DNA from: Bacteroidia bacterium
GTDB lineage: Bacteria > Bacteroidota > Bacteroidia > UBA8524
Reading direction: 5' to 3'
DNA length: 64,000 nucleotides
Assembly: GCA_965222995.1 (NCBI GenBank)
Contig: OZ244977.1
Coordinates: 582,095 to 646,094 of the forward strand
Of this stretch, positions 34,644 through 47,902 are shown piece after piece (position 1 is the stretch's first letter; every line of letters starts with the position of its first letter). The notes under the pieces were generated by a model. The model saw only the letters and a list, made by a program, of their open reading frames with translations. It did not search any database and was not told the origin of the DNA. Position numbers and translations under genes: made by a program.

Positions 34644-34736
34644 ATCCTAAATTCTTATTTCTTGTAACAGTATGGGGCAAAAATAGTTCAAATAATCAAA
34701 GGCTTTATAGTTAGGTATGGCATTTGTATATTTGCA

Positions 34737-35165
34737 ATGGTGTTGCAACAAGAACATACAAAAGCAGTAGATACACTTAAAAGCCATAAGCTGCGTATCA
34801 CAGAAACCCGAACTAAGGTTTTAGGCTTATTTATGAACGGACATTTAGCCCTGAAACAGTCTGATGTTGAAGATGCTTTGGGTACTAAGTACGACCGTGT
34901 TACTATTTATCGTACTTTAAATTCTTTTTTAGAAAGTGGCATTATCCATAAAATACCTGACGATAGCGGGGCTACTCAATATGCTTTGTGCGATAATTGT
35001 GATGCACACGAACACCATGATGAGCATATCCATTTTAAATGCACCAAGTGCAATAAGCTGGAGTGTTTAGACCACTATACCGTACCTAAATTTGAAGTTC
35101 CTTTAGGATATACTGTAGCCTCTGCCGATATGGTAGTAATAGGCATTTGTGCAGAGTGTACTTAG
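34737..35165 (+). CDS. Fur-family transcriptional regulator
   Basis: A winged-helix N-domain (LRITETRTKVLGLF, RVTIYRTLNSFLESGIIHKI) and a C-terminal metal site (HEHHDEH, CTKCNK...C...C). Confidence 0.85.
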   Translation: MVLQQEHTKAVDTLKSHKLRITETRTKVLGLFMNGHLALKQSDVEDALGTKYDRVTIYRTLNSFLESGIIHKIPDDSGATQYALCDNCDAHEHHDEHIHFKCTKCNKLECLDHYTVPKFEVPLGYTVASADMVVIGICAECT

Positions 35166-36091
35166 TCTTTTAGTTCTCTAGAAATTAAGTTCTCATATTG
35201 CTGAAACTTATAGTTTTCTGATGTTGCGTTTGAAGAACCAACAACATGCCGAATAATTTTTCCATTTTTATCTACAAGAAACTGTTGGGGAACTCCTTGA
35301 ATATTTAAATGTGATGTGAGTTTTCCATCAACATCATAAAGTATTTTAATACCTTTATTAGCAAAATATTTATTTGTAAAGGCTTGTTTGTAAGTATCTA
35401 TCCTGCCTGTATTTAGTAATATTACTTCAAAATTCTCTTTTTTAAATTTATCTTGTACTTTAGTAAGTAATGGTAATTGTTCGATACAAGGCAAGCAACT
35501 GTTTCTATAAAATTCAAATAGAATAATTTTGCCTTGTAAATTGCCAATATTAGTTTTAATTGAGTCTTTGTTTAAAAGTGCATGTGGCGGGGTGCCATTA
35601 TATATATTTGTATTCAGTTTTGGTGATGTTAAGTTATCGATTAACTCATCCCAACGCCCTATTGAGTTGGCATAAATTATATTACTAATGGATACAAAAA
35701 CAATAAAAACTATAACTATGTAAGTTTTTTTTAATGAATGGACTAAATAACCTAAGTAGAACGAAAGGGTTGCCCAAAAAGGTAGTAGAGGCAAATCATG
35801 CCAAAACATTATTTGATGAGAATTATATGTTGAAAGTATGATGTATAAAGAAGGCAAGAGTAATAAAATAACCTCTAGCAATTTTATTTTTTTTGATTTA
35901 ACTATAAGACCTATAATAAAAAACAGAGTTGAAATTACTGTTGGTCTAAAGTATATATTTTCAATATAGCCGCTTCTAGTAAAACTCCATACTGTAACAA
36001 CTCCAAATCCTAGAACTAATAAGATTATATATTTTAATATTTTTTTCATTTTAAATAGTTCCAGTTTAATTAAGTTTATTAACTGGAACAA
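35162..36091 (-). CDS. Polytopic membrane protein with C-terminal TlpA-like thioredoxin (thiol-disulfide oxidoreductase) domain
   Basis: Roughly five N-terminal TM segments are followed by a thioredoxin fold with the active site CLPC (LFEFYRNSCLPCIEQLPLL) and a cis-Pro region (IQGVPQQFLVDKNGKI). A possible alternative start lies at 36049 (MKKILKYIILL). Confidence 0.75.
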   Translation of the reverse strand: MFQLINLIKLELFKMKKILKYIILLVLGFGVVTVWSFTRSGYIENIYFRPTVISTLFFIIGLIVKSKKIKLLEVILLLLPSLYIILSTYNSHQIMFWHDLPLLPFWATLSFYLGYLVHSLKKTYIVIVFIVFVSISNIIYANSIGRWDELIDNLTSPKLNTNIYNGTPPHALLNKDSIKTNIGNLQGKIILFEFYRNSCLPCIEQLPLLTKVQDKFKKENFEVILLNTGRIDTYKQAFTNKYFANKGIKILYDVDGKLTSHLNIQGVPQQFLVDKNGKIIRHVVGSSNATSENYKFQQYENLISRELKD

Positions 36092-36109
36092 TTACGACAC
36101 TGTAATTTA

Positions 36110-36763
36110 CTATGGGATATTCAGTGCAATAGGGCATAAACCATCACAAGCCCACCTCCAAAAAGTGCCACAACCCGACTTTTTCTTTTTACATGAGTTT
36201 CTTTTTTCACAATCACCTAAAAAAGGGATGCACCAATCTGAACCAGAAGAACATTTACAATTATTATTATCATCCTCTTCAAATATATCATCATTTAAAT
36301 AGTTGGGGTCAATGTCATCTAATGTATTTACTATTCTTTTAATAGTATTTTCATTGAAGTTCGGAATAGCTGATGCCACCCATGTTGGTTCAAATGTATT
36401 TTTAAAACTGATGTCTTCAGCACTCCCATCGGTGAATAAATTAATACTCAACTGGTTAAAAATACTATTCAAATCACTTAACTGTGCAGAGTTCCATACT
36501 GTTAATCCTAACACCTGGTTTTTCTTATCCAACCAAATATTATATTTCTCTGTGGGCGTACAAGTATTGTAAGTAGCTTTCCTTACTGATGGAGAAAGAG
36601 TTAGGAGATATGCTCTTGTAATTGTTGTTTTACGTTGAAAGGCTACTTTTTCATCACTATTATTAATTTGAGGTTCTGTTTCAGACTGAGTGGTTTTAGT
36701 GCAAGAACTCATTATTAATAGCCCGGCTATTAATAATGCAAATTGACTTTTTAATTGTTTCAT
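36110..36763 (-). CDS. Lipoprotein with Cys-rich C-terminal module (9 Cys in last ~50 aa)
   Basis: Lipobox LLIMSSC. The C-terminus is NNNCKCSSGSDWCIPFLGDCEKRNSCKKKKSGCGTFWRWACDGLCPIALNIP. It lies 18 nt upstream of the TlpA-like gene on the same strand. Confidence 0.6.
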   Translation of the reverse strand: MKQLKSQFALLIAGLLIMSSCTKTTQSETEPQINNSDEKVAFQRKTTITRAYLLTLSPSVRKATYNTCTPTEKYNIWLDKKNQVLGLTVWNSAQLSDLNSIFNQLSINLFTDGSAEDISFKNTFEPTWVASAIPNFNENTIKRIVNTLDDIDPNYLNDDIFEEDDNNNCKCSSGSDWCIPFLGDCEKRNSCKKKKSGCGTFWRWACDGLCPIALNIP

Positions 36764-36913
36764 TTCAAGAATTACTTAAGTTAATGAATTGATAATTACG
36801 CAATATCAATATTAAGTTTTAATTACTTAACTTTAATAAAACAAGTTTTAGTATTTCCGCTTATCTAATTTTTTTTAATACTAGTAATGATGTTTTTGGT
36901 AACATCGTTGCAT

Positions 36914-36945
36914 AAAAAACCCCTTCACTTTGTAAGCAAAGGGGC
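36914..36945 (-). terminator. Intrinsic terminator downstream of lipoprotein gene 36981..37745
   Basis: The minus strand reads GCCCCTTTGCTTACAAAGTGAAGGGG followed by TTTTTT. Confidence 0.5.
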
Positions 36946-36980
36946 TCAACCTATATACTAATTACAATTATGAAAAAGAT

Positions 36981-37745
36981 TTAATCCCAGTGTACATGAT
37001 ACTCAACATCAGCATCGTTGTTTTTCAGGTCAAAGGCTTCAATAATTAATTCGTATTCACCTTTTGGCCAAGATGGATCAAAAACAATTTTCTCAGTAAA
37101 ATTTTCTCCCGTCCCGCTTAAGTTTCCATCAATATCTACATAATTTTTTTCTGTTCCTTCATGTATAAGCTTAATTTCATAACTCTTCAAGCCTTTATCA
37201 TCTCCTACAGTACCCTCAATTGTAATTTCATTACTATTTTTTAATTCTATTTCATTATTTGCATCAGGTGCAGGAGTGGTATTTACATTAAGAGTTGGGG
37301 CTATTAAATCTTCGGCGTTTTTTATTACTATTTCAGAAACAATAAAGTCAGCCTCATTGCCGGCTTTGTCAATTACTCGCATCGTAAAATCATAATTTCC
37401 AGCAGCTATATCAATGGGTAAAGTAATTTTAAAATTCAAATTAGCCGTTTTACCACTCAAATTAATAATACTGTCCCACTCAAAAGCAGGTGAGCCATTT
37501 TTCATGTGGGCATGTCCATCAAAGTTTTCGTGTATTTCTATCTTAGCCTGGCTAAGCTCAGTATCATCGTTAATGGTAGCTGAAATTGTAATATCATTCC
37601 CAGATGTAAACTCATCATCTTTTGAAGGGCTATTTAGCTGTACTGATGGCTTAGTGGTATCTTTTGGGCTGTTGTCATCATCTTTTTTACATGATGAGAT
37701 ACCTATTAATAGTAAGGCTGCAAGTGCTAAACTTAGTTTTTTCAT
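36981..37745 (-). CDS. Lipoprotein with two tandem Ig-like repeat domains (DUF4625-like)
   Basis: The start at 37745 gives MKKLSLALAALLLIGISSC. There are two repeats of ~90 aa (ITISATINDDTELSQAKIEIHE / ITIEGTVGDDKGLKSYEIKLIHE). The family name is from memory. Confidence 0.6.
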   Translation of the reverse strand: MKKLSLALAALLLIGISSCKKDDDNSPKDTTKPSVQLNSPSKDDEFTSGNDITISATINDDTELSQAKIEIHENFDGHAHMKNGSPAFEWDSIINLSGKTANLNFKITLPIDIAAGNYDFTMRVIDKAGNEADFIVSEIVIKNAEDLIAPTLNVNTTPAPDANNEIELKNSNEITIEGTVGDDKGLKSYEIKLIHEGTEKNYVDIDGNLSGTGENFTEKIVFDPSWPKGEYELIIEAFDLKNNDADVEYHVHWD

Positions 37746-37783
37746 TTCTATAGTTATTATTTTATATGACTCTTGTTTTTGAA

Positions 37784-37821
37784 ACATTGTTGCAAATATA
37801 ATTAAATGCAACAATGTTGCA
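37784..37821. promoter_or_regulatory. Composite palindromic operator-like element (TGTTGCA half-sites x3)
   Basis: The sequence is ACATTGTTGCA-aatataattaaa-TGCAACAATGTTGCA. It lies in the divergent promoter region between the lipoprotein gene (minus) and the ECF sigma gene (plus). The core TGCAACA-A-TGTTGCA is a perfect palindrome also found at 43113..43127. Confidence 0.45.
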
Positions 37822-37957
37822 AGTAAAAATGCATTTATCAAAGATTGATTATATTGAGGCTATAGATATTTTACATTAAGAGAAATATTTTTAAGTGCGA
37901 TTACAACCCGCCAACCTTAAATACCGTTAATAACATAAACGACCTTCTCCACACGGG

Positions 37958-38515
37958 ATGATTAGTGATAGTGAACTCATAAAAGGATGCATAAACAACG
38001 ACAGGTTGTACCAAAAACACCTGTATGAAAAGTATGCCCGAAAAATGTTGACAGTGTGCCTATGCTACACTAGAGACAGTTATGAGGCTGAGAATATTTT
38101 GCAAGAAGGGTTTATAAAGGTATTTGAGAATTTAAAAAAATATAAGCCCGTAGGAAGTTTTGAAGGTTGGATTAGAAGAATAATAGTGAACACGGCTACC
38201 GATTACTATCGCAAAATGAAACGTGTGAAGTTTATAGAGGTTGATATAGATGAGGCAGGGCACAAAGTATCTACAATAGATATAGACCAATTTGCCACAG
38301 AAGATATAGTGAAGGCTATACAGAAATTGCCAGAGGGGGGGCGAATGGTATTTACCCTATTTGCCATAGAGGGGTATAGCCACGCAGAGATAGCTGAACA
38401 ACTGGGGATTTCTGTAGGAACATCGAAATCTCAGTATGCCAGAGCAAGAACATTATTGCAAACTACACTAAAGAATAGTGAGAGAAATTTTTTTTTAAAA
38501 CATAAAATACTTTAA
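37958..38515 (+). CDS. ECF-type RNA polymerase sigma-70 family factor (paralog of 2299..2865)
   Basis: 185 aa with FIKVFENLKKY, SFEGWIRRIIVNTATDYYRK and a region-4 HTH YSHAEIAEQLGISVGTSKSQYARAR. Confidence 0.85.
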   Translation: MISDSELIKGCINNDRLYQKHLYEKYARKMLTVCLCYTRDSYEAENILQEGFIKVFENLKKYKPVGSFEGWIRRIIVNTATDYYRKMKRVKFIEVDIDEAGHKVSTIDIDQFATEDIVKAIQKLPEGGRMVFTLFAIEGYSHAEIAEQLGISVGTSKSQYARARTLLQTTLKNSERNFFLKHKIL

Positions 38516-38541
38516 AAACATAGCATAAGCTATATAGAGCA

Positions 38542-39933
38542 ATGAAAATTGTTGATTTAAATAACTATGAAGAGAACGACGGCTTAAGAGACAAGTTGAG
38601 GAAGCGTATGGACACGCATGAACCTGAACTTTCTGATAGCGTGTGGGATAGAATTCACCATGAAATGGACAGGCGAGAGGCAAACCGTAAAAAACGTTTC
38701 TTGTGGTGGTTTTCTTCGGTAGCTGTTGTAATGCTTACCAGCGGTATTGTTTCTTTTTTGGTGTTAAGCAATGCCGATAAGCCAGAAGTAGTGGCACAGA
38801 ATACCAAAGAAATAATTTTTTCTTCTCCTGATAACCCTAGTTCAGAAATAATCACATTATCGCAAGATGATGATGAGACTGATGATAACCTACCTAGTAA
38901 AACAGAAAATACATCAAATACAATTTCTAATTCAGGTTTGAGCAATAGAAATTTAGTTCCACCTGTACCGACACCTGTTAATTATAGTTCTGGGCAGGAG
39001 AATATACCTAACAACAGTGTAGAAACAGAAGATAATAGTACAACAAAAGAGCTTACTGAAAAATTAGAAACTAAAGGAGAAGAAGTTGTGCCTGATGCTA
39101 CTACCGAGTCTTCTGAAAATGAAGATATAACTAAGAAAAATGAAAAAGAGCAAGCTATTGCTTTACCTGTTAAGAAAAAAGAGAAACAAGACGACAGCAA
39201 GAAGACTAAAAAAGCAAAAGCAGCCTCAAATTTTTTAAATAAGCGTTGGTTTGTTGGGATAAATTATAGCTTCAACCAAACATACCGTACTGTTACGGAT
39301 ATAACCCCTTCTTTTTTTTACCCTTCGGCAGAAGAACGCAACAAGTTTGAAAAAGCAGGATATAGTTCTAGCTACGGCTTAGAGTTTGGGTTTTATCCTA
39401 TAAAAAACTTTTTTGTTAAATCAGGCTTGGGAATATTCAACTATAAAGAAAATGTTGAATATGATGTGAAGAAAAGACAGTACTTTCCGGGGGGAGGAAT
39501 AGCAGTTATTTATGGGGATTATAAGGATAGTATAGCTGTTGGTAATAGTGTTAAAAAACAAAATACTTACCAATACATACAAATACCAATTGAAGTGGGC
39601 TATAGCAGAACCATTACACCCAGGTGGCAACTTTTTGTGAGTGGCGGGGCCGTTTTGAATATTTTACAGAATTACAGATATCACATGTATGAGTCATTTT
39701 ACGAGAATGCTGTCATACCACCGGGTGTTGAAGAAAATTATGATGACATGTATACAAACTATGTAATGCTTAGTGGAGGTATAGGAGGGCAGTATGCATT
39801 ATCGAGGAATTGGATGTTAAGCTTTGGTATAAATTACCGTAGGGCTGTAACATCAGCCGCCGACAAAAAATATGCAGTTGATGTAAGACCTTATTCACTG
39901 GGCGCATCAACGGGTTTGGCGTTTAGATTTTGA
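38542..39933 (+). CDS. Anti-sigma-factor-like membrane protein with C-terminal outer-membrane beta-barrel domain (paralog of 966..2309)
   Basis: 463 aa. The N-terminus has the motif DSVWDRIHHEMD, then one TM segment (LWWFSSVAVVMLTSGIVSFLVL), then an S/T/N/E/D-rich linker. The C-terminal ~230 aa are beta-barrel-like, ending GLAFRF. Confidence 0.6.
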   Translation: MKIVDLNNYEENDGLRDKLRKRMDTHEPELSDSVWDRIHHEMDRREANRKKRFLWWFSSVAVVMLTSGIVSFLVLSNADKPEVVAQNTKEIIFSSPDNPSSEIITLSQDDDETDDNLPSKTENTSNTISNSGLSNRNLVPPVPTPVNYSSGQENIPNNSVETEDNSTTKELTEKLETKGEEVVPDATTESSENEDITKKNEKEQAIALPVKKKEKQDDSKKTKKAKAASNFLNKRWFVGINYSFNQTYRTVTDITPSFFYPSAEERNKFEKAGYSSSYGLEFGFYPIKNFFVKSGLGIFNYKENVEYDVKKRQYFPGGGIAVIYGDYKDSIAVGNSVKKQNTYQYIQIPIEVGYSRTITPRWQLFVSGGAVLNILQNYRYHMYESFYENAVIPPGVEENYDDMYTNYVMLSGGIGGQYALSRNWMLSFGINYRRAVTSAADKKYAVDVRPYSLGASTGLAFRF

Positions 39934-40047
39934 ACTTTTGAGTAGAAAGTTATTGGTTAGGTGTTAGCCCTGAGGTAGTAAAATACCACAGGGCTTTTTG
40001 GCTAAACTTAATCGACTAATAAACTTTTTATTTCGACGACCAATGTT

Positions 40048-40055
40048 TATATTTG
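40048..40055 (+). promoter_or_regulatory. -7 promoter element TATATTTG upstream of S8 peptidase gene
   Basis: The TAnnTTTG match lies 26 nt upstream of the ATG at 40082. Confidence 0.35.
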
Positions 40056-40081
40056 ATATATCGTCTTATTAAAGACAAGAC

Positions 40082-41728
40082 ATGAAAAAATATATTTTAC
40101 ATATTGTTTTTTGCATAGCTTTCATTACTCCTGGCTTTGCTCAGATAGCTGAGGATAATGGCTTCATTGCAAATCAGTTATATGTAAAAATCATTCCTCC
40201 AACTGCACAATCTTTCGAAGTACAATATATACCTCACCCAGATAATCCTGATATGGGCAAAAGTGCATGGCAGGTAATAAAAAATTATGGGGGAATGAGT
40301 ATGGTAAATGCCTTTTCAACTACCTATAAAGATTTGCAAAATGTGTATAAAGTAACTTTAAAAGAAGGTTCTGATATTGAAGCATTGTTGAATGCATTGG
40401 GCAAAAACCAAGATGTTGAGTATGTTGAGCGAATACCTGTTTACAATACAACTGCAAAACCTGTTGATTTAGATGAGGGCAAACAATGGTATTTCAAAAC
40501 CATTAACATGGATAGGTCGTGGACTTCGGTACAACGTGTTTCATGGAGGCTAAAAACTATTGCCGTTATTGATAATGGTGTTCTCTACAATCATGAAGAC
40601 TTGGTTGGTAGTATAGAACAGAATTTAGGAGATATTCCCGGAGATGGTATTGATAATGACGGTAACGGTTATATAGATGATTTTTATGGATGGAATGTTG
40701 CTGCAAATAATGGCGACCCAAGACCACATGATATACCTCAAAACCTGAGAAATGATGCCCGCTTTGAAAAATACGGCTGGCATGGAACCCATGTTGCCGG
40801 GGTTATAGCAGCTGGTATTGACAACAATAAGGGGATAGCATCTTTAGGTATAAATAATAAGGTACTTTGTATAAAAGCGGCGGGAGTAATAAATGGTAAA
40901 CCTAACGATGCCATATTATACAACATTAATGAAGCCTTTAGATATGCTATAGATAGAAAGGTTGACATAATAAACTGCTCATTTGGGTCATCAAACCCCT
41001 CTATTGTAACGCAAGCAATTATAAATGAAGCAGCAAGTAAGGGCATTATAATTATTGCTGCAGGAGGGAACGGAGGAACTGATGAAGCATTTTATCCCGC
41101 AGCATACAATAATGTAATAGCTGTTGGTGCTACCACCCGTGATGATAAAATATTGGGTGAAAGTAATTATGGTAGCTATATTGATGTGATGGCACCCGGG
41201 CATGAAATTTACAGTACCGTTAGTACTAGTAATAATAGTTATGGATACTTATCGGGGACTTCAATGGCAGCGCCTATAGTATCAGGGATTGCGGGACTTA
41301 TAATATCTATGGAGCCGCATTTGGCAAACCAAATTGAAGAAATTATTAAGGGAGGATGTGATAATATTGACTCTAAGAATCCAAACTTTAAAGGTAAAAT
41401 GGGTGCAGGAAGGGTTAATGTAGACAGAAGTTATTTGTATATGGAAGGGCTGGTATCTGTAAAAGAGTTTCCAAACTATAAGAACTTTAGCGTTTACCCT
41501 AATCCTTCGTCAAATAACATATATATTCCCTTCAACGAAATTTCTATTTCAGGGCAACCCGTTTTAGTAAAAATATTAAATACGGTTGGTGCCCAAGTTG
41601 CCCAACAAGAAGTTAACTATCAAAACCAACCTGTTTCTGTAACACAATTGTCGCAAGGAATTTATCAAGTTGTTGTTACTAATATTAGTGGAGAGAACTA
41701 TCGCTCTCGTTTGGTCGTAAATCGCTAG
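40082..41728 (+). CDS. Subtilisin-like S8 peptidase with type-A T9SS C-terminal sorting domain
   Basis: Signal peptide. Catalytic motifs are AVIDNGV (Asp), HGTHVAGVIAA (His) and GTSMAAPIVSGIAGL (Ser). The C-terminal ~80 aa (FSVYPNPSSNNIYIPF...GIYQVVVTNISGENYRSRLVVNR) match the Por secretion CTD. Confidence 0.88.
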   Translation: MKKYILHIVFCIAFITPGFAQIAEDNGFIANQLYVKIIPPTAQSFEVQYIPHPDNPDMGKSAWQVIKNYGGMSMVNAFSTTYKDLQNVYKVTLKEGSDIEALLNALGKNQDVEYVERIPVYNTTAKPVDLDEGKQWYFKTINMDRSWTSVQRVSWRLKTIAVIDNGVLYNHEDLVGSIEQNLGDIPGDGIDNDGNGYIDDFYGWNVAANNGDPRPHDIPQNLRNDARFEKYGWHGTHVAGVIAAGIDNNKGIASLGINNKVLCIKAAGVINGKPNDAILYNINEAFRYAIDRKVDIINCSFGSSNPSIVTQAIINEAASKGIIIIAAGGNGGTDEAFYPAAYNNVIAVGATTRDDKILGESNYGSYIDVMAPGHEIYSTVSTSNNSYGYLSGTSMAAPIVSGIAGLIISMEPHLANQIEEIIKGGCDNIDSKNPNFKGKMGAGRVNVDRSYLYMEGLVSVKEFPNYKNFSVYPNPSSNNIYIPFNEISISGQPVLVKILNTVGAQVAQQEVNYQNQPVSVTQLSQGIYQVVVTNISGENYRSRLVVNR

Positions 41729-41814
41729 TTAGCCTTATTTACTTTATCCTTTATCGTAATTGGATTTACAGTATTTCATTTGTTTATATATTGGTGCTCA
41801 CTTATTTTTAGAGC

Positions 41815-42984
41815 ATGAAAAAAATCTTATTTAGTGCGCTACTTCTTATAGCGTTCACATTTTCACAAGCACAAACATTTACAAACAAAGAGGGTAGCAA
41901 GTATAAGTTTACTACTGTTAAAGATATTGAAGCTACAGCAGTAATGAGCCAAAACCGCAGTAGCACTTGTTGGAGTTACTCTTCGCTATCGTTTTTTGAG
42001 AGTGAGCTTATCCGAATGGGTAAACCTGCTGTGAAATTGGCACCTATGTATATAGTGCGTAAGGCTTATGAAGACAAAGTAGAGAAATATGTGCGTATGC
42101 ACGGTACGATAAATCTTGCTGCAGGGGGTGCCTTTCACGATACAAAATATGTATGGGAAAAGTATGGTATTATTCCCTTAGAGTTGGATAGTAGTGATGA
42201 AATTACAGGCGATGAAAACCCTGTACACGGCGAGTTGGATGCGATGATAAAGGCCGCTGCTGATGTTATTATCAAAGCAAAAAATAATAGAAAACTAAGT
42301 AAGGTTTGGGAGAATAGTATTAAGGGAATTTTAGATGCCCATTTTGGTGAGGAGCCTAAAGAATTTGACTATAAAGGTAAAAAGTATACACCTAAAAGCT
42401 ACGCAGAATCATTAGGGTTAAATATGGTCGATTACGTAGCCATAACCTCATTTAACCACCACCCTTTTTATAGTGAGTTTGCGCTTGAAGTGCCTGATAA
42501 CTGGCAGTGGGGTACCTGCCATAATGTACCTTTAGATGAGTTTCAGCAAATTATGGATAATGCCCTTGGCAATGGCTATGGCGTTGCTTGGGCAGCAGAT
42601 GTTAGCGAACTGGGCTTTAACTGGAAAGAAGGTTTGGCTATTGAGCCCGCAGCAGATTTAGGTAAAAGAGGTTCTGATGAATGGGCTGCTGCTTTTAAAT
42701 CACCCGTAAAACAAAAAACAATTACGCAAGAACTTCGCCAACAGGCTTTTGATGATTATACCACACAAGACGACCATGGTATGCATTTTACAGGTATAGT
42801 AAACGACCAGCAGGGCAATGTATACTATAAAGTAAAAAACTCATGGGGAAGCTATAAAGGCAATAGTTGTGAGGGGTACCTGTATGCCTCTCGTGAGTAC
42901 GTACTTTATAAGACTACAAATATCTTAGTTCATAAAGATGCTATACCTAGTGCAATTGCAACGAAAATGGGTTTAAAAAAATAG
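41815..42984 (+). CDS. C1-family cysteine peptidase (aminopeptidase C / bleomycin-hydrolase-like)
   Basis: Signal peptide. The catalytic Cys context is QNRSSTCWSYSSLSFFESE. His/Asn region segments are present in the C-terminus (HGMHFTGIV...NSWG). Confidence 0.8.
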   Translation: MKKILFSALLLIAFTFSQAQTFTNKEGSKYKFTTVKDIEATAVMSQNRSSTCWSYSSLSFFESELIRMGKPAVKLAPMYIVRKAYEDKVEKYVRMHGTINLAAGGAFHDTKYVWEKYGIIPLELDSSDEITGDENPVHGELDAMIKAAADVIIKAKNNRKLSKVWENSIKGILDAHFGEEPKEFDYKGKKYTPKSYAESLGLNMVDYVAITSFNHHPFYSEFALEVPDNWQWGTCHNVPLDEFQQIMDNALGNGYGVAWAADVSELGFNWKEGLAIEPAADLGKRGSDEWAAAFKSPVKQKTITQELRQQAFDDYTTQDDHGMHFTGIVNDQQGNVYYKVKNSWGSYKGNSCEGYLYASREYVLYKTTNILVHKDAIPSAIATKMGLKK

Positions 42985-43004
42985 TAAACGCTTTATTCTA
43001 ATAT

Positions 43005-43039
43005 AAAAGCCCTATGCAACAGCAAAGGGGCTTTTTTTT
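43005..43039 (+). terminator. Intrinsic terminator after C1 peptidase gene
   Basis: AAAAGCCC-(15-nt loop)-GGGCTTTT with a T8 run. Confidence 0.55.
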
Positions 43040-43097
43040 GTAGCTCTAAAACACTTCGATATAGTAGTTACTCTGCATAAGTCAATTTTGAGATAGG

Positions 43098-43142
43098 AAA
43101 ATACACTATAAATGCAACATTGTTGCATTTATAGTGTATTTT
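43098..43142. promoter_or_regulatory. 45-bp near-perfect palindrome (operator-like) overlapping the promoter of oxidoreductase gene 43162
   Basis: AAAATACACTATAAATGCAACA-T-TGTTGCATTTATAGTGTATTTT has 22-nt arms around the core TGCAACA-T-TGTTGCA. The -7-like TATTTTTG at 43137..43144 lies inside the right arm. The ATG is at 43162. Confidence 0.5.
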
Positions 43143-43161
43143 TGTCCCATTAAAAGAAGCA

Positions 43162-44067
43162 ATGAGTAAACTATACGATACAATTATTATTGGTGGGAGC
43201 TATTCTGGTTTATCAGCAGCAATGTCATTAGGGCGGGCATTAAGAAACGTACTAATTATAGATGAGGGAAAACCCTGTAATATCCAAACACCTTATTCAC
43301 ACAATTTTATTACTCAAGATGGCAAAGCACCATTAGTTATAAAAGAAGAAGCTTTAGCACAAGTTTTAAAGTATAATACAGTTGAACTTAAAAAGGGTAA
43401 AGCTGTTTCAGTAGAAAAATTGGCTGAAGGAACCTTTAATATTATGAGCAGTGATGGGAAAGAATGGCAAACTGGGAAACTATTATTTGCTTCGGGAATT
43501 AAGGATATAATGCCAAATATTAAGGGATTTAAAGAGTGTTGGGGTATATCTATACTACATTGCCCTTATTGCCATGGTTATGAAGTAAAGGCCCTTGAGA
43601 CAGGAGTTTTGGCTAAAGGAGATATAGGATTTGAATTTACTAAAATGATAAGTAACTGGACGAATAAATTAACACTATACACTAACGGTGAAGATGATTT
43701 AAGTAAAGAGCAGAGAGAAAAATTAGAAACCAATGATATAATGTTAGACAAAAGAAAAATACAAGAATTTGTGCATGATAGAGGTAACCTGAAAAGGGTT
43801 GTATTTAAGGATGGAAACCATGTGGATTTAACAGTAATGTATGCCAATGTTGAGACAAAACAACATTGTGATTTTCCTGAGCTTTTAGGTTGCGAGTTTA
43901 CTGAATCTGGTCTTATAGAAGTTAACGGGTTTCAACAAACAAGTATTGCAGGGGTTTATGCCGCAGGCGATTGCGCTTCAATGTTTAGGTCAGTAGCTCT
44001 CTCTGTTTCATCGGGTTCGGTTGCCGGAGCAGCCATTAACCATGAATTAATTAACGAAAGTTTTTAG
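43162..44067 (+). CDS. Thioredoxin-reductase-like NAD(P)/FAD-dependent oxidoreductase with CPYC redox motif
   Basis: FAD motif IIIGGSYSGLSAA, a CxxC at ILHCPYCHGYE and a second nucleotide-binding motif GVYAAGDCAS. Confidence 0.8.
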   Translation: MSKLYDTIIIGGSYSGLSAAMSLGRALRNVLIIDEGKPCNIQTPYSHNFITQDGKAPLVIKEEALAQVLKYNTVELKKGKAVSVEKLAEGTFNIMSSDGKEWQTGKLLFASGIKDIMPNIKGFKECWGISILHCPYCHGYEVKALETGVLAKGDIGFEFTKMISNWTNKLTLYTNGEDDLSKEQREKLETNDIMLDKRKIQEFVHDRGNLKRVVFKDGNHVDLTVMYANVETKQHCDFPELLGCEFTESGLIEVNGFQQTSIAGVYAAGDCASMFRSVALSVSSGSVAGAAINHELINESF

Positions 44068-44069
44068 CC

Positions 44070-46454
44070 TTATTTTTTTTCCAAAACAGGAATAATAACC
44101 GTAACTACTACGTTTCTGCCCGGTTCTGGCAAGTTAAGAAAACGCCAACGGCTAAGGTGGTTTAAATAGCGTACATCCGTTAAGTTTTGTACTTGTAAAT
44201 AAACGGTAGCTCGTTTTTTTCCTTTAGTTTCAATTTCAAAACCAGCACCTGCATTCCATAATTGATAGGCAGGTGTGGTTAGCTCATTTCTATCGGTACG
44301 GTTTTGAGCTGTAATATAATTGTGGCTAAGCTGTATAAATAGACCCTTAATATTTCTCCCCACCTTCGGTAATTCCCACTCAACTTCGCTTTTTAGCGAG
44401 GGTGGGGGGGTAAATGGCAATGGTAAATCTTCACTAACATTATAAGTTCTTACCAAGTCTCCCGTAAGAGATAAGTGTAAATGCTTAGTTGGGTGGTACT
44501 CTGCAGTGAATTCACCACCGCTATAAATTGCCTCGGCTTGGGTAAACTGGTATATCTGCCCACCCTCGGGCAAGAAAGAAAAACGGGCTGTTGGGCGTAA
44601 ATAAATATAATTGGTAAAGTAGTTAAAGAAGGGGCTAAAACTAAATAAGAACTTTTCTTTTTCTACGGAGATAACTACATCGGTTTGGTAGCCGTTTTCA
44701 GGTAATAAACTGCTATCACCTACCTCGTGCCGAAAACTGCCATGGTGCAGTCCGTTTACACTTAATTCTTGCGGTGTAGGCATACGGAAAGACTTACCAA
44801 AGTTTAGTTTAAAACTCCAATAATTATTAGGGTTGTATGCAGCACCAATGCTACCGCTCCAGCTATAAAAATCTCTATTAATATCAGGATTACGTTGAGT
44901 ATAGCCTTTAATTGTGGTGGCGTTTTGCCAAACAGGTTGCAGGTGGCGTTCTATAGCTACATTACCATAATCGAAACGAAGACCTGCATTGGCTATAAAT
45001 TTACGGCTTATATGCCATTTTTCTACTGCAAAGGCACCTATGTTAAAGGCATCAAAATTAGGGAGCAGAAACTCAAACCCACCAAAACGGTTTTGCTGGT
45101 AGCTGCTACTAATGCCATATACACCATCCAGTACTTTTAAGGTTTTAGCATGGTAGCGAATATTGGTACTAAAAGTTTGTAGTCTTAGACTATGAGCGGT
45201 AGTGCTATTTATTTGCGGCCCCACACCATGCGCATGCGGACTAGAGTTTTCATTGCGTAAGTTGTTTTGGTAGCCTGCATCAATCTCCATCCAGTTTTTA
45301 CCAATTTGTATATTGGTGTTAGAGATAATTTTAAAGTGGTTTATATCTTGGTTAGGTAAAGCAATATTGCGTTCATCACCATCAGGAGTTAGTTGGTAAG
45401 CTCTTGGAATACCTAAAGCACCGCTAAAAATACCTATTTGTTGGTTGTAGTTACTTATAGTTATATGGCTGTAGCCCCAGTTTTTATTTACCCCCAACAT
45501 TAGCGAGGCATGGCGTTCTCTACCCGCTGTATTTTTCAGTTTTTGGTTATAGATGGGCAATACAAAACGGTTGTATACAAAACTATCGGCTGGTACATTA
45601 TAATCACCATAATCTAGGGCTGTAAGTCTTGCTCTATATACAAACCCCTTGTGGTTTCCCTTTGCTTGTGCAGAAACACCGTATGTATTATTTACACTTT
45701 TGTAGTTGGTAAGAAAAGCCGCGCTGTGGCTACCCTCCATAGGGCTAACAGGATGTTTAAGGTTTACCACACCGCCAATAGCATCAGACCCGTAAACTAA
45801 TGAAGCAGGACCTTTTAATATTTCTATTTGTTCAACGGCAAACTGGTCTATCTCTAAACCGTGGTCGCCGCCCCATTGTTGCCCTTGTTGTTTTATGCCA
45901 TTATCTGCCACTGCAACACGGTTAAAACTCATTCCCCGAATAACAGGTTTAGAAACACCTGTACCCATATTAATGCTATTAATACCAGGCAGCTTATCTA
46001 ATGAGTTCATTAGCGTGGTACCCATATTTTTTTGTAGGTAACCTTCATCAACAGCAATTAACTCTACAGAGCTTTCTTGTTGTGATAGTTTTAGAACGTT
46101 ACTCTCTATTACTACCTCATTTACTTCTAAACTAGTGGGTACAAGTGTTACAGTTAGCTGTACATCTTCATCGGCTATTATAACGTCTCGGGCAGCAGGC
46201 TTATAACCAATCATACGGATATGTATGTGATACCGCCCGTTTTTTACATTTTTTATGGTGAAGTTGCCTAAAGAATCTACACCCACGCCTTGCTGTGTTT
46301 CGTGCAGATATACTGAAGCCGCAAAAGCAGGTTCCTTATTCTCTATTAATACCTTACCACTAATTTTGTATTGGGCAGACAGTAAGGTAGTTATGAGAAT
46401 AAAAAAGAGTAGTAGTATATATTTGCTCTTTGCCAACTTTATAAAAGACGACAA
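44070..46454 (-). CDS. TonB-dependent outer membrane receptor
   Basis: Signal peptide, CarboxypepD_reg-like N-domain (YKISGKVLIENKEPAFAASVYL) and plug segments. The C-terminal barrel is 794 aa. It lies 31 nt downstream of the MarR-like gene on the same strand. Confidence 0.9.
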   Translation of the reverse strand: MSSFIKLAKSKYILLLFFILITTLLSAQYKISGKVLIENKEPAFAASVYLHETQQGVGVDSLGNFTIKNVKNGRYHIHIRMIGYKPAARDVIIADEDVQLTVTLVPTSLEVNEVVIESNVLKLSQQESSVELIAVDEGYLQKNMGTTLMNSLDKLPGINSINMGTGVSKPVIRGMSFNRVAVADNGIKQQGQQWGGDHGLEIDQFAVEQIEILKGPASLVYGSDAIGGVVNLKHPVSPMEGSHSAAFLTNYKSVNNTYGVSAQAKGNHKGFVYRARLTALDYGDYNVPADSFVYNRFVLPIYNQKLKNTAGRERHASLMLGVNKNWGYSHITISNYNQQIGIFSGALGIPRAYQLTPDGDERNIALPNQDINHFKIISNTNIQIGKNWMEIDAGYQNNLRNENSSPHAHGVGPQINSTTAHSLRLQTFSTNIRYHAKTLKVLDGVYGISSSYQQNRFGGFEFLLPNFDAFNIGAFAVEKWHISRKFIANAGLRFDYGNVAIERHLQPVWQNATTIKGYTQRNPDINRDFYSWSGSIGAAYNPNNYWSFKLNFGKSFRMPTPQELSVNGLHHGSFRHEVGDSSLLPENGYQTDVVISVEKEKFLFSFSPFFNYFTNYIYLRPTARFSFLPEGGQIYQFTQAEAIYSGGEFTAEYHPTKHLHLSLTGDLVRTYNVSEDLPLPFTPPPSLKSEVEWELPKVGRNIKGLFIQLSHNYITAQNRTDRNELTTPAYQLWNAGAGFEIETKGKKRATVYLQVQNLTDVRYLNHLSRWRFLNLPEPGRNVVVTVIIPVLEKK

Positions 46455-46485
46455 AAATACCCTAAATGCAAGTATGTTGCAAAAA

Positions 46486-47154
46486 TTAATCTGTGTACGA
46501 GTGCTCAGGACAATCTATTCGCAATTTATCCTTTGGCAATTTTTGCTTAAGAAGATTACAATAACCGCCACCTGTATTTTGGTAGTACTCGCAGGTTAAG
46601 CACATTCTTTGTAGGGTGATTATGCTACTTTTGGTTAATTTATAAATTAGCTCTACCAATGCATTAAATAAATCTTCCTTTTGGGTTTGTGATAGTTGAC
46701 TAATAGGCTTTTGTAAAGGGAGAATAAAGTTTGATGTTTTGTAAGCCAGCTTCTTACCTTTTGGAGTTAGTGTAAGTGAATAGCTTCTAGTATCTAAAGG
46801 GTCTGCATTTTTTTCTATTAGTTTTTTTTGTGAAAGAGCCTTTACTGCATCACTTATAGTCGCTTTAGTTAAGTTAAACTCTTTGGCCAGGTATCCCACC
46901 TTGCAGTATTGATTTTGTGTATGGAAGGCTAAGAAGATTAGTATTTGCATTTGTATAGGGCTTAAAGTATGCTCCTTTGCTTCATCCCAAAGAGCTACTC
47001 TAAATGCTTCTGAAACTCTTTCTAAAGCCACCACAATTTTGCTGTCTAAACTAGAGTTTTGTACATTTAAGTTAAAAGCTGTTTCATCCATAAAAGTAAT
47101 GCAGAGTATAATACCCTGCATTACAAAGTTAGTAGTCCTAACTATTAAAATCAA
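46486..47154 (-). CDS. MarR-family winged-helix regulator with C-terminal Cys4 (CxxC...C...C) extension
   Basis: The MarR-like core is LSPIQMQILIFLAFHTQNQYCKVGYLAKEFNLTKATISDAVKALSQKKLIEK. The C-terminus is RMCLTCEYYQNTGGGYCNLLKQKLPKDKLRIDCPEH. The alternative start MDETAFN lies at 47091. Confidence 0.7.
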   Translation of the reverse strand: MILIVRTTNFVMQGIILCITFMDETAFNLNVQNSSLDSKIVVALERVSEAFRVALWDEAKEHTLSPIQMQILIFLAFHTQNQYCKVGYLAKEFNLTKATISDAVKALSQKKLIEKNADPLDTRSYSLTLTPKGKKLAYKTSNFILPLQKPISQLSQTQKEDLFNALVELIYKLTKSSIITLQRMCLTCEYYQNTGGGYCNLLKQKLPKDKLRIDCPEHSYTD

Positions 47155-47158
47155 AATT

Positions 47159-47743: not shown

Positions 47744-47757
47744 AGTGTTATAAGATT

Positions 47758-47810: not shown

Positions 47811-47902
47811 TTTTCATCTTGAATATTACTAGCAAGAAAACTTAGTATAATAGTGGTTATAAGAGAGGTACAATTAATGAATACCTATGAAAAAATAACC
47901 TG

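What the first reader, a model, noticed from the sequence alone, without database searches (positions are those of the whole stretch)
37784..43142. Shared 15-bp palindrome TGCAACA-N-TGTTGCA in two unlinked promoter regions (candidate regulon operator)
TGCAACAATGTTGCA at 37807..37821, plus a third TGTTGCA half-site at 37788..37794, lies in the divergent promoter between a tandem-Ig lipoprotein gene and an ECF sigma gene. TGCAACATTGTTGCA at 43113..43127 forms the centre of a 45-bp near-perfect palindrome whose right arm overlaps the -7 TATTTTTG of a CPYC-type TrxR-like oxidoreductase gene. I found no other intergenic copies in the window. Occurrences in coding sequence, such as the TGTTGCAACA at the start of the Fur-family gene, look incidental. 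An operator overlapping a promoter predicts repression. The cognate factor is unknown. The motif does not match CRP/FNR, Fur or Rex boxes as I remember them.
Basis: seen in the sequence. Interest (0 to 1): 0.58.

Follow-up and report, generated by a model that had tools for sequence, protein, structure and literature searches.

The report
Zinc-regulator (Zur) operator boxes in Bacteroidota
The shared palindrome is real: it is the DNA docking site of the Fur-family, most likely zinc-sensing (Zur) repressor encoded 3 kb away, and it marks a small metal-starvation regulon of a known kind, not a new type of system.

Summary
TGCAACANTGTTGCA occurs exactly at 37807-37821 and 43113-43127 (0.00 expected). 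Three degenerate copies, all in promoters, were missed or dismissed: 37780-37794, 46467-46481 and 34733-34747. The last overlaps the start of the Fur-family gene.

The cognate factor is that Fur-family protein (34737-35165). In 80 genomes carrying its homologues (43-54% identity), the motif sits next to the gene: 68 matrix hits against 2-4 in shuffles. An unanchored metagenome scan for the exact 15-mer again returns this regulator and its partners: a TonB-dependent receptor, lipoprotein lids, MerC-like, SCO1-like and TrxR-like genes. Closer relatives (70-87% identity) keep the boxes upstream of the same genes.

Zinc is the likely signal:
- The consensus equals the Zur site ATGCAACnnnGTTGCAT predicted for Desulfovibrio znuABC-zur in 2004.
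- Exact boxes precede a ZrgA-type zinc-uptake operon and COG0523 (ZigA-like) genes.
- The protein keeps the His/Cys/His sensing ligands of E. coli Zur.

SCO1- and COX3-like neighbours leave a minor copper alternative.

The boxes cover the -33 region or the -7 box and transcription start, which predicts repression.

One unexplained feature: the 45-bp palindrome upstream of the TrxR-like gene is kept by compensatory changes. It may also act as a terminator.

Verdict: a new member of a known kind.

The parts
34737..35165 (+). Fur-family regulator gene (142 aa), the proposed cognate repressor (Zur-like).
   Evidence: Pfam FUR hit at 43.8 bits. The best NCBIfam hit is Zur, but far below the cut-off (35.6 against 167 bits). 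It has two CxxC pairs, an invariant H71, D75, H97 and H99, and a nearly invariant C85. The profile alignment to E. coli Zur (4mtd) shows VHK, VLC and a downstream His aligned with these residues. I equate them with E. coli Zur H77, C88 and H96 from my own knowledge. The motif co-occurs with this family in other genomes.
34733..34747 (.). Box at the regulator's own promoter, TGCAATGGTGTTGCA (2 mismatches, 20.5 bits). It overlaps the last 2 nt of the -7 box TATATTTG (34727-34734) and the ATG/GTG start.
   Evidence: Conserved in L206 (TGCAGCAGTGTTGCA) and L207 (TGTAACAGTGTTGCA) but not in L208, L081, L083 or L085.
37807..37821 (.). Box A of the DUF4625 lipoprotein promoter (exact, 27.4 bits). On the - strand it ends 6 nt upstream of the -7 box TATATTTG (37800-37793).
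   Evidence: Conserved in L206, L207 and L083/L084.
37780..37794 (.). Box B of the same promoter, TGAAACATTGTTGCA (1 mismatch, 23.1 bits). It overlaps the last 2 nt of the -7 box and covers the expected transcription start. Its centre is 27 bp from the centre of box A.
   Evidence: The same TGAAAC half-site is conserved in L206, L207 and L083.
36981..37745 (-). DUF4625 tandem-Ig lipoprotein gene, a putative surface 'lid' for a non-SusC TonB-dependent transporter. Regulated target.
   Evidence: Pfam DUF4625, 2 stretches, E = 1.9e-31. The lid role for DUF4625 was proposed for Bacteroides BT1419/BT1420 (bioRxiv 10.1101/2023.03.17.533168). A Fur-like / TonB receptor / DUF4625 operon follows a box in L194.
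43113..43127 (.). Box upstream of the TrxR-like gene (exact, 27.7 bits). It ends 9 nt upstream of the -7 box TATTTTTG (43137-43144), and its centre is 42 bp from the ATG.
   Evidence: Conserved upstream of the orthologue in L207, L208, L081 and L083. Exact boxes also precede homologues in the metagenome loci L089 and L181.
43098..43142 (.). 45-bp perfect palindrome that extends the box. It may double as an RNA hairpin or terminator for the upstream peptidase gene.
   Evidence: 15 complementary positions per arm. RNA fold of -28.3 kcal/mol, z = -9.95. Relatives keep palindromes of 15, 15, 16 and 7 nt per arm with different arm sequences. 7 of 22 pairs show compensatory changes, and the covariation score is 0.345 against 0.20 in shuffles and at most 0.13 in slid controls.
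43162..44067 (+). TrxR-like flavoprotein (301 aa, HCPYCHG motif). Regulated target.
   Evidence: Pfam Pyr_redox_2; sequence. The closest solved relatives are 3FBS (4e-54) and entries deposited as DepH, GliT and thioredoxin reductase. It is the first gene after a box in 8 of the 9 loci of its cluster.
46467..46481 (.). Box upstream of the TonB-dependent receptor, TGCAAGTATGTTGCA (2 mismatches, 20.3 bits). On the - strand it ends 7 nt upstream of the -7 box TATTTTTG (46459-46452).
   Evidence: Conserved in L207 (11523) and L083 (20019).
44070..46454 (-). TonB-dependent receptor. The mechanical ORF start, TTG at 46454, lies inside the -7 box, so the likely true start is the in-frame TTG at 46436. 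Regulated target.
   Evidence: Pfam Plug plus TonB_dep_Rec. The best NCBIfam hit is ZnuD, the zinc piracy receptor, at 135.9 bits, far below the 950-bit cut-off. Homologous receptors follow the regulator gene in about 11 other loci.

Best explanation
The palindrome TGCAACA-N-TGTTGCA (wider consensus aTGCAAC-N3-GTTGCAt) is the operator of the Fur-family repressor encoded at 34737-35165. That repressor is a divergent, most likely zinc-sensing Zur.

Proposed mechanism: with metal bound, the dimer sits on boxes placed in one of two ways. Some boxes end 6-9 nt upstream of the Bacteroidota -7 element TAnnTTTG and so occupy the -33 zone. This is the case for the TrxR-like gene, the TonB receptor and box A of the lipoprotein gene. 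Others are fused to the 3' end of the -7 element and cover the transcription start. This is the case for the regulator's own gene and box B of the lipoprotein gene. Either position blocks RNA polymerase. Under metal starvation the repressor leaves and four units are derepressed:
- the regulator itself;
- a DUF4625 surface lipoprotein;
- a ZnuD-like TonB-dependent receptor, which probably works with that lipoprotein as receptor and lid;
- a TrxR-like flavoenzyme.

Shown here: the sites and their positions, their conservation, and the link between motif and regulator family. Inferred: binding, repression, zinc as the effector, the receptor-lid pairing, and the promoter elements, which rest on the published Bacteroidota -7 consensus as I remember it.
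For: 1. The sites are non-random and lie only in promoters: 2 exact against 0.00 expected; 6 matrix hits of at least 12 bits in the 64-kb window against 0.2 in shuffles, all within 34.7-46.5 kb and all outside coding sequence except for the first codons of the regulator gene.

2. Link to the regulator family. 80 genome loci were picked only because they encode a homologue (43-54% identity).
- They hold 14 exact and 52 near matches in 1.32 Mb.
- They hold 68 matrix hits against 2-4 in shuffles, and 51 of the 80 loci have at least one hit.
- The regulator ORF was located in 68 loci. The site is within 100 bp upstream of it in 18 and 101-1000 bp upstream in 25, where it sits ahead of a SCO1-like / regulator operon.

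3. An unanchored scan of metagenome contigs for the exact 15-mer gave 123 hits, 70 of them intergenic. About 25 loci have the same families next to the site: the regulator (at least 11), a TonB receptor, an acidic His-containing lipoprotein, DUF4625, MerC-like, SCO1-like and TrxR-like genes.

4. Footprinting in syntenic relatives (70-87% identity in the regulator). The boxes are retained upstream of the DUF4625, TrxR-like and receptor genes while flanks diverge.

5. Zinc.
- The consensus is the one predicted for Zur upstream of znuABC-zur in Desulfovibrio.
- An exact box precedes a ZrgA / ABC / FtsX-MacB / DUF3299 operon in L118.
- A box precedes MerC-like then COG0523 genes in L163, L188 and L197. 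The best NCBIfam hit for L163 is ZigA.
- A double box precedes DUF1826 then an ABC ATPase in L165.
- The regulator has a His, a Cys and a His aligned with residues of E. coli Zur that I take to be its sensing ligands.
- One source names a 50%-identical homologue 'Zn-responsive transcriptional regulator Zur'.

6. The 7-1-7 inverted repeat is the Fur-family operator format (my own knowledge: Fur, PerR and Zur boxes of Bacillus subtilis).
Against: - There is no experimental evidence of binding or of a metal response.
- The regulator is far below the NCBIfam Zur cut-off.
- The window holds no classic zinc genes under a box (no znuABC, COG0523 or ribosomal paralogues). The receptor's ZnuD hit is weak.
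- Many homologous loci pair the regulator with SCO1/SenC-like genes (30 loci) and, in 4 loci, a COX3-like gene. These families are usually tied to copper and cytochrome oxidase.
- The box at the regulator's own promoter is lost in four relatives, and L085 has the regulator but no box within 10 kb on either side.
- The weight matrix was trained on sites taken from the same loci, so the matrix counts are partly circular. The plain pattern counts are not.
- My gene calls in the loci are crude longest-ORF calls.
Confidence: 0.72

Rival explanations
1. The operator and Fur-family repressor are as described, but the sensed metal is not zinc. Copper is the main alternative. The regulon would then be a copper-acquisition system made of a TonB receptor, a lid lipoprotein, a MerC-like importer and a SCO1-like chaperone.
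For: In 30 homologous loci a SCO1/SenC-like gene precedes the regulator gene in a box-controlled operon. A COX3-like gene follows the regulator in L010, L030, L033 and L067. The window has a TlpA/ResA-like redoxin close by. The receptor also hits the TonB copper receptor model weakly (4e-12). A sensing site that contains Cys could also bind Cu(I).
Against: The same consensus was predicted upstream of znuABC in Desulfovibrio. Exact boxes precede a ZrgA-family zinc-uptake operon and ZigA-like COG0523 genes in three loci. The aligned His/Cys/His set is that of Zur. To my knowledge no Fur-family copper sensor is known.
Confidence: 0.1
2. The palindrome is bound by a different local regulator, such as the MarR-like protein at 46486-47154, or it is part of an ECF-sigma-dependent promoter.
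For: The MarR-like gene ends 5 bp from the 46467-46481 box, and this adjacency is conserved in L083. The ECF sigma gene is divergent from the double box.
Against: The BLASTP comparison of window proteins against the 80 regulator-anchored loci found no MarR homologue and only one distant ECF sigma hit. The metagenome site neighbours were compared with the same reference set, and none matched the MarR-like or ECF proteins. L207 and L208 keep boxes without a MarR gene nearby. Relatives without DUF4625 have no box upstream of the ECF sigma gene. ECF promoters are not palindromes (my own knowledge).
Confidence: 0.03
3. The sites act mainly as nucleic-acid structures rather than protein operators, for example hairpins, terminators or a dispersed palindromic repeat. 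A weaker and compatible form is that only the 45-bp palindrome at 43098-43142 has a second role, as the intrinsic terminator or insulator of the upstream peptidase gene.
For: The extended palindrome is kept in five species by compensatory changes and folds at -28.3 kcal/mol, z = -9.95. In L207, L208 and L083 it is the only hairpin in the 74-95 bp gap between the peptidase and TrxR-like genes, and in four of the five species a TATTTTTG run follows the G+C-bearing part of the stem.
Against: The other four boxes in the window have no extended palindrome. A 15-bp core alone folds weakly. The boxes at the TrxR-like homologues in L089 and L181 have no extended arms. The simple terminator scan reports nothing here. 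The window already has a canonical terminator at about 43005-43040. Position upstream of orthologous genes and the link to one regulator family fit an operator, not a mobile repeat. Template switching within quasi-palindromes could keep the arms perfect without selection (my own knowledge).
Confidence: 0.05

Closest known systems
Predicted Desulfovibrio Zur box ATGCAACnnnGTTGCAT upstream of znuABC-zur (Rodionov et al. 2004, Genome Biol 5:R90; PMC545781)
   Same: The consensus is the same. The D. vulgaris site ATGCAACagtGTTGCAT is an exact instance of TGCAACANTGTTGCA. [quoted passage not shown]
   Different: The phylum differs (Bacteroidota here), and so does the regulon: a TonB receptor, lipoprotein lids, MerC-like, SCO1-like and TrxR-like genes instead of znuABC. 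Orthology of the two regulators was not tested. The Desulfovibrio site is itself only a prediction, and a 2009 paper says little is known about DVU1340.
Fur-family 7-1-7 operators of Bacillus subtilis (Fur, PerR, Zur) and the Gram-positive Zur consensus TAAATCGTAATnATTACGATTTA
   Same: The architecture is the same: two 7-nt inverted half-sites around one central base, A/T-rich flanks, promoter overlap and repression by a metal-bound dimer. The architecture is from my own knowledge. The consensus is quoted.
   Different: The half-site sequence (TGCAACA) is unrelated to TCGTAAT, TGATAAT or TTATAAT.
E. coli Zur and its znuABC operator (PDB 4MTD/4MTE)
   Same: The protein aligns over its full length (E = 1.6e-9 with the family profile). 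The two CxxC pairs and a His, a Cys and a His line up with E. coli Zur residues that I take to be the sensing ligands H77, C88 and H96.
   Different: The NCBIfam Zur equivalog score is far below its cut-off. The operator sequence is different. There is no clear equivalent of the fourth ligand, E111, across the family.
Zur-regulated TonB-dependent zinc receptors (Neisseria ZnuD; Caulobacter Zur-regulated receptors, PMC4176598)
   Same: A TonB-dependent receptor under a Zur-type box, with ZnuD as its best NCBIfam hit.
   Different: The similarity is weak (135.9 against a 950-bit cut-off). Here the receptor is paired with Bacteroidota-specific lipoproteins: DUF4625, or an acidic repeat family carrying DDEHxFFF and LKHQP motifs.
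DUF4625 'lid' lipoproteins of non-SusC TonB-dependent transporters in Bacteroides (BT1419/BT1420; bioRxiv 10.1101/2023.03.17.533168)
   Same: The same Pfam family and an association with a non-SusC receptor. L194 has the regulator, a receptor and DUF4625 in one box-controlled operon.
   Different: In the window the lipoprotein and receptor genes are 6 kb apart and linked only by the shared operator. The substrate of the Bacteroides pair is unknown.

Membership tests
Fur-family operator (7-1-7 inverted repeat) | Two 7-nt inverted half-sites separated by one base, with A/T-rich flanks | tested here: met
   The symmetrised profile of 39 distinct sites has T-G-C-A-A-C-a-n-t-G-T-T-G-C-A at 94-100% in the core, with A/T flanks.
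Fur-family operator (7-1-7 inverted repeat) | Lies in or on core promoter elements of the regulated genes | tested here: met
   The boxes end 6-9 nt upstream of a TAnnTTTG element or overlap its last 2 nt, at all four window promoters. That TAnnTTTG is the promoter element is inferred from the published Bacteroidota consensus.
Fur-family operator (7-1-7 inverted repeat) | Co-occurs with a Fur-family regulator gene across genomes, including sites at the regulator's own promoter | tested here: met
   80 anchored genome loci; unanchored metagenome scan; at least 11 sites adjacent to the regulator.
Fur-family operator (7-1-7 inverted repeat) | Metal-dependent binding by the dimeric regulator | not testable with these tools
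   Needs a gel shift or footprint with purified protein.
Zur (zinc uptake regulator) subfamily | Structural zinc site made of two CxxC pairs | tested here: met
   C102, C105, C138 and C141 are invariant in 20 homologues.
Zur (zinc uptake regulator) subfamily | Sensing site that includes a Cys (E. coli Zur H77, C88, H96; residue identities from my own knowledge) | tested here: met
   H71 (invariant), C85 (at least 90%) and the His cluster at 93-99 align with VHK, VLC and a downstream His of chain 4mtd. PerR and Fur have no Cys at that column. This rests on alignment only.
Zur (zinc uptake regulator) subfamily | Passes a curated Zur family model | tested here: not met
   NF008646 Zur scores 35.6 bits against a cut-off of 167. 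Fur, PerR and Irr models score similarly low. The protein is a divergent branch, not a member of the enterobacterial equivalog.
Zur (zinc uptake regulator) subfamily | The regulon contains recognised zinc-uptake or zinc-sparing genes | tested here: met
   Met in related loci, not in the window: a ZrgA / ABC / FtsX / DUF3299 operon (L118); COG0523 ZigA-like genes (L163, L188, L197); DUF1826 plus an ABC ATPase (L165). Within the window there is only a weak ZnuD-like receptor.
Zur (zinc uptake regulator) subfamily | Operator matches a described Zur box | tested here: met
   It matches the Desulfovibrio-type predicted consensus ATGCAACnnnGTTGCAT. It does not match the Gram-positive consensus quoted there.
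Zur (zinc uptake regulator) subfamily | Zinc-responsive expression of the targets | not testable with these tools
   Needs expression data under zinc depletion and repletion, and a regulator mutant.
Intrinsic terminator (only the 45-bp palindrome 43098-43142) | Stable stem-loop followed by a U tract, downstream of a co-directional gene | tested here: inconclusive
   Strong fold, compensatory changes, and TATTTTTG after the G+C-bearing stem in 4 of 5 species. However, the simple terminator scan finds nothing and the U run pairs with the A run of the left arm.
Dispersed palindromic repeat (REP or MITE-like) | Many copies at non-orthologous positions, not tied to particular genes | tested here: not met
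   The 64-kb window holds only 5-6 copies, all in promoters of one gene set and conserved upstream of orthologues.

The most novel reading that the evidence does not exclude
The Zur box upstream of the TrxR-like gene is built into a dual-use element. It sits at the apex of a 29-47-bp hairpin kept by compensatory changes, so one stretch of DNA would act as terminator or insulator of the upstream peptidase gene, as operator, and, through its U tract TAtTTTTG, as the -7 promoter element of the next gene.

In addition, the regulon would define an uncharacterised Bacteroidota zinc-acquisition route. Its parts would be a TonB receptor with DUF4625 or acidic His-lipoprotein lids, a MerC-like membrane protein working with a SCO1-like partner, and a flavoenzyme related to DepH and GliT. 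I recall DepH and GliT as dithiol oxidases, which hints at a thiol-based zinc chelator.
Probability: 0.25. Interest if true: 0.6.

Novelty: new member of a known kind. Interest (0 to 1): 0.4.

Why it matters
It names a regulator and a likely signal for four otherwise unconnected genes in this window. It also gives a testable operator model for a Fur-family branch that is widespread in Bacteroidota, with more than 596 homologous loci in the genome collection. This branch also occurs in other lineages: homologues of a 33%-identical member are named from Spirochaetales, Synergistaceae and Myxococcota.

My searches of the held paper library found no described metal-starvation or Zur regulon for Bacteroidota. 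The major 2018 Zur review never mentions Bacteroidetes.

The predicted regulon points to candidate components of zinc uptake in this phylum:
- a non-SusC TonB receptor with DUF4625 or acidic lipoprotein lids;
- MerC-like and SCO1-like proteins;
- a flavoenzyme related to DepH and GliT.

This would supply a candidate substrate for the DUF4625 'lid' family, whose substrate is unknown. It would not change the general understanding of Fur-family regulation.

Tried and rejected
1. MarR-like and ECF sigma as cognate factors: rejected because they do not co-occur with the motif.

2. ECF sigma as a regulated target: rejected because relatives without DUF4625 have no box upstream of the sigma gene.

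3. Copper as the effector: considered seriously after the SCO1/SenC and MerC hits and the COX3-like hit. Downgraded after the ZrgA, COG0523 and Desulfovibrio znuABC evidence.

4. Known RNA family: Rfam gives only sub-threshold microRNA-precursor matches, that is, generic hairpins.

5. Simple terminator and sigma-70 promoter scan of 42900-43250: nothing found. The sigma-70 scan is not suited to Bacteroidota promoters.

6. Literature searches for a Bacteroidota Zur box or regulon: nothing relevant. One search was spoiled because 'zur' matched inside 'seizure', and because 'MerC' matched 'Merck'.

7. Identifying the source genome: the exact regulator protein is 'not on record' for context look-up, and the genome collection has no homologue above 54% identity.

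8. Some exact matches in the metagenome scan are chance or unrelated:
   - phage loci (L104 terminase, L111 prohead protease);
   - coding-sequence hits in high-G+C contigs;
   - a 41-bp tandem repeat in L116.

9. L190 has an exact box between a different Fur-family gene and an RsgA GTPase paralogue. That Fur-family gene is not in this regulator's BLAST cluster. Left unresolved.

Full report
**Observation.** The two exact 15-mers are at the stated coordinates: TGCAACAATGTTGCA at 37807-37821 and TGCAACATTGTTGCA at 43113-43127. No exact match arose in 100 dinucleotide-preserving shuffles of the window.

With up to two mismatches there are five sites against 0.46 expected, although 1 of 100 shuffles also reached 5. 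The three additional sites are:
- 37780-37794 (TGAAACATTGTTGCA).
- 46467-46481 (TGCAAGTATGTTGCA).
- 34733-34747 (TGCAATGGTGTTGCA).

A weight matrix built later finds the same five sites plus one weak site at 36898, and nothing else in 64 kb at 12 bits or more (0.2 expected). The palindrome around the second exact site is perfect over 45 bp (43098-43142). Its right arm overlaps TATTTTTG at 43137-43144.

**Gene context.** The sites lie in a 14-kb stretch between the histidine-utilisation genes hutU (32964-34643) and hutH (48526-50001). In order, the genes are:
- a Fur-family gene (34737-35165, +);
- a TlpA/ResA-like membrane redoxin (35162-36091, -);
- a fulvocin-related Cys-rich protein (36110-36763, -);
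- a DUF4625 tandem-Ig lipoprotein (36981-37745, -);
- an ECF sigma factor (37958-38515, +) followed by an outer-membrane-like protein;
- a T9SS-tailed S8 peptidase and a C1-like peptidase;
- a TrxR-like flavoprotein with HCPYCHG (43162-44067, +);
- a TonB-dependent receptor (44070-46454, -), whose best NCBIfam hit is ZnuD, far below the cut-off;
- a MarR-like gene and a protoglobin gene.

The -7 type promoter elements and the T9SS sorting domain point to Bacteroidota.

**Which factor?** The 7-1-7 inverted-repeat layout is that of Fur-family operators (my own knowledge), and one box lies on the start of the Fur-family gene, so I tested that link. The protein has homologues mainly in Bacteroidota. 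One source calls a 50%-identical homologue 'Zn-responsive transcriptional regulator Zur'.

I fetched 80 genome loci chosen only for encoding a homologue (43-54% identity; Cytophagales, Chitinophagales, Sphingobacteriales and a few Flavobacteriales). They carry 14 exact and 52 near matches in 1.32 Mb. The matrix gives 68 hits against 2-4 in composition-preserving shuffles, and 51 of the 80 loci have at least one hit.

The sites fall at a few recurrent places:
- directly upstream of the regulator gene;
- between a divergent MerC-like gene and a SCO1-like / regulator operon;
- upstream of a TonB receptor homologous to the window's receptor;
- upstream of an acidic lipoprotein with repeated DDEHxFFF and LKHQP motifs.

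The matrix counts are partly circular because the matrix was trained on sites from these loci. The plain pattern counts are not.

**Unanchored test.** A scan of metagenome contigs for the exact 15-mer returned 120 loci with 123 hits, 70 of them intergenic by my ORF calls. About 25 loci have the same families next to the site:
- the regulator (at least 11 loci);
- the lipoprotein family (8 loci);
- the TonB receptor;
- MerC-like and SCO1-like genes;
- DUF4625 (L115, L194);
- the TrxR-like gene (L089, L181).

Other hits are chance: coding-sequence hits, phage loci and a tandem repeat.

**Footprinting in close relatives.** Six syntenic loci whose regulator is 70-87% identical were retrieved. The results were as follows:
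- The double box upstream of DUF4625 is kept wherever that gene exists (L206, L207, L083/L084).
- The receptor box is kept in L207 and L083.
- The TrxR-like box is kept in L207, L208, L081 and L083, while the surrounding intergenic DNA has diverged.
- The box on the regulator's own promoter is kept in the two closest relatives (L206, L207) but not in L208, L081, L083 or L085.
- Relatives that lack DUF4625 (L208, L081, L085) have no box upstream of the ECF sigma gene, so the double box belongs to the lipoprotein gene.
- L085 has the regulator but no box within 10 kb on either side.

**Which metal?** Evidence for zinc:
1. A full-text search for the motif found Rodionov et al. 2004 (PMC545781). 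They predicted a Zur site ATGCAACnnnGTTGCAT upstream of znuABC-zur in two Desulfovibrio species. A later paper notes that little is known about that regulator, DVU1340.
2. In L118 an exact box precedes a ZrgA-family / ABC ATPase / FtsX-MacB permease / DUF3299 operon.
3. In L163, L188 and L197 a box precedes a MerC-like gene and then a COG0523 GTPase gene. The best NCBIfam hit for L163 is the zinc metallochaperone ZigA.
4. In L165 a double box precedes DUF1826 and an ABC ATPase. I recall DUF1826 from zinc-starvation clusters.
5. A profile alignment to solved structures places an invariant His (H71), a nearly invariant Cys (C85) and the His cluster at 93-99 opposite residues of E. coli Zur that I take to be its sensing ligands H77, C88 and H96. 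PerR and Fur lack the Cys.

Evidence against zinc, or not fitting it:
- The protein fails the curated Zur model.
- SCO1/SenC-like genes (30 loci) and COX3-like genes (4 loci) in box-controlled operons suggest copper.

I put zinc at roughly 0.8 given that the operator-regulator link is right, and copper or another metal at about 0.1 overall.

**Mechanism (inferred).** Using the Bacteroidota -7 consensus TAnnTTTG (my own knowledge), the boxes take two positions:
- Upstream class. The box ends 6, 7 or 9 nt upstream of the -7 element: lipoprotein box A, the receptor and the TrxR-like gene. This is where a -33 element would sit.
- Fused class. TAtaTTTG runs straight into the box (TATATTTGCAA...), so the box covers the expected transcription start: the regulator gene and lipoprotein box B.

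The lipoprotein promoter has both, with box centres 27 bp apart. For the regulator gene the -7 element ends 3 nt before the ATG, and the closest relative starts at GTG, so its mRNA is probably leaderless or nearly so. The first in-frame TTG of the receptor ORF (46454) lies inside the -7 element. The likely start is the TTG at 46436, which opens a signal-peptide-like sequence.

**The 45-bp palindrome.** Upstream of the TrxR-like gene the box is extended to a perfect palindrome in every close relative, with 15, 15, 15, 16 and 7 nt per arm, but the arm sequences differ.
- On a five-sequence alignment, 7 of 22 pairs change on both sides and stay paired. 90% of cells are paired. The covariation score is 0.345, against 0.20 in shuffles (0 of 500 reach it) and at most 0.13 when partners are slid.
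- The RNA fold is -28.3 kcal/mol, z = -9.95.
- The other boxes in the window, and the boxes at the TrxR-like homologues in L089 and L181, have no such extension.
- In L207, L208 and L083 the palindrome is the only hairpin in the 74-95 bp gap between the peptidase gene and the TrxR-like gene. In four of the five species a TATTTTTG run follows the G+C-bearing part of the stem.

It may therefore double as the terminator or insulator of the upstream gene. The window has an extra canonical terminator at about 43005-43040. The simple terminator scan does not call the palindrome. Concerted evolution of quasi-palindromes by template switching is a neutral alternative. I leave this open.

**The TrxR-like target.** Its closest solved relatives are an uncharacterised oxidoreductase (3FBS, 4e-54, with the same HCPYCHGYE motif) and entries deposited as DepH and GliT. 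I recall these as FAD-dependent dithiol oxidases. True thioredoxin reductases score much lower. It is the first gene after a box in 8 of the 9 loci of its cluster, so it is a conserved regulon member. I have no tested explanation for its role. A link to a thiol-type zinc chelator is speculation.

**Comparison and novelty.** The element works like, and by layout is, a Fur-family operator. Its sequence is the Desulfovibrio-type Zur box predicted in 2004. The regulator is a divergent Zur-like branch, not the enterobacterial equivalog. What seems new is the lineage and the regulon content:
- In the held library I found no description of a Zur box or zinc regulon for Bacteroidota.
- The 2018 Zur review does not mention the phylum.
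- DUF4625 proteins have been proposed as lids of non-SusC TonB transporters with unknown substrate.

I cannot exclude that regulon databases outside the library list this motif. Verdict: a real and correctly interpreted operator, a new member of a known kind, and of moderate interest.

Noticed in passing
window 43098-43142; L207 8128-8172; L208 15659-15703; L083 16540-16586; L081 15702-15730: The Zur-type box upstream of the TrxR-like gene is extended into a perfect 29-47-bp palindrome in five related genomes. The arms differ between species, so the pairing is kept by compensatory changes. In three relatives it is the only hairpin between the upstream peptidase gene and the TrxR-like gene.
   Followed up: partly
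window 32964-50001, compared with L081, L083, L085, L206-L208: The region between hutU and hutH is a variable island. Relatives keep the regulator, ECF sigma and peptidase backbone but differ in whether they carry DUF4625, the fulvocin-related and TlpA-like genes, the TrxR-like gene, the TonB receptor, and the MarR and protoglobin genes.
   Followed up: partly
window 36898-36912: A weak box-like site, GGTAACATCGTTGCA (12.5 bits), lies in the 218-bp gap between the DUF4625 stop and the fulvocin-related gene, about 135 bp upstream of that gene's ATG. I saw no -7 element nearby. The relatives examined lack the fulvocin-related and TlpA-like genes, so conservation could not be checked.
   Followed up: no
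window 34727-34747: The -7 element of the regulator gene ends 3 nt before its ATG, and the closest relative (L206) starts at GTG. The mRNA is probably leaderless, and the right half of the box encodes the first residues (V-L-Q).
   Followed up: no
window 46434-46459: The mechanical start of the TonB receptor ORF (TTG at 46454) lies inside the predicted -7 element. The in-frame TTG at 46436 is the more likely start.
   Followed up: partly
L009 8820-9979 and about 30 similar loci; L010, L030, L033, L067: In Chitinophagales the box sits between a MerC-like gene with a His-rich tail and a SCO1/SenC-like gene (CxxxC motif) that is co-transcribed with the regulator. In four loci a COX3-like gene follows the regulator. 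These copper-type families do not fit a zinc regulon.
   Followed up: partly
L018 12868-13503, L005 3612-5255, L059 8978-10615 and others: A family of acidic lipoproteins with no Pfam hit, made of one to three repeats of about 180 aa with conserved DDEHxFFF and LKHQP motifs. They are encoded next to the box-controlled TonB receptors and are likely metal-binding lids or capture proteins.
   Followed up: partly
L128 202-714 (63% G+C); L143 402-930 (59% G+C): Exact boxes lie directly upstream of homologues of the regulator in high-G+C contigs. For L128 the relatives are named from Spirochaetales, Synergistaceae and Myxococcota. The regulator-motif pair therefore extends well beyond Bacteroidota.
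   Followed up: partly
L190 948-2540: An exact box with palindromic flanks lies between a different Fur-family gene, which scores closer to iron-Fur models, and an RsgA GTPase paralogue, in a 29% G+C contig. RsgA normally carries a zinc finger (my own knowledge), so this may be a zinc-sparing paralogue.
   Followed up: no
L116 35-131: Three exact copies of the 15-mer lie 41 bp apart inside a tandem repeat in a 53% G+C contig. This appears unrelated to the operator.
   Followed up: no
window 46486-47743: A MarR-like gene (222 aa) and a protoglobin gene lie immediately upstream of, and co-directional with, the box-controlled receptor. The MarR stop is 5 bp from the box. The MarR adjacency is conserved in L083.
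   Followed up: no
window 30490-31776: A 428-aa bacterial protein made of WD40 repeats. It is conserved at the same position in relatives (L085, L206, L208).
   Followed up: no
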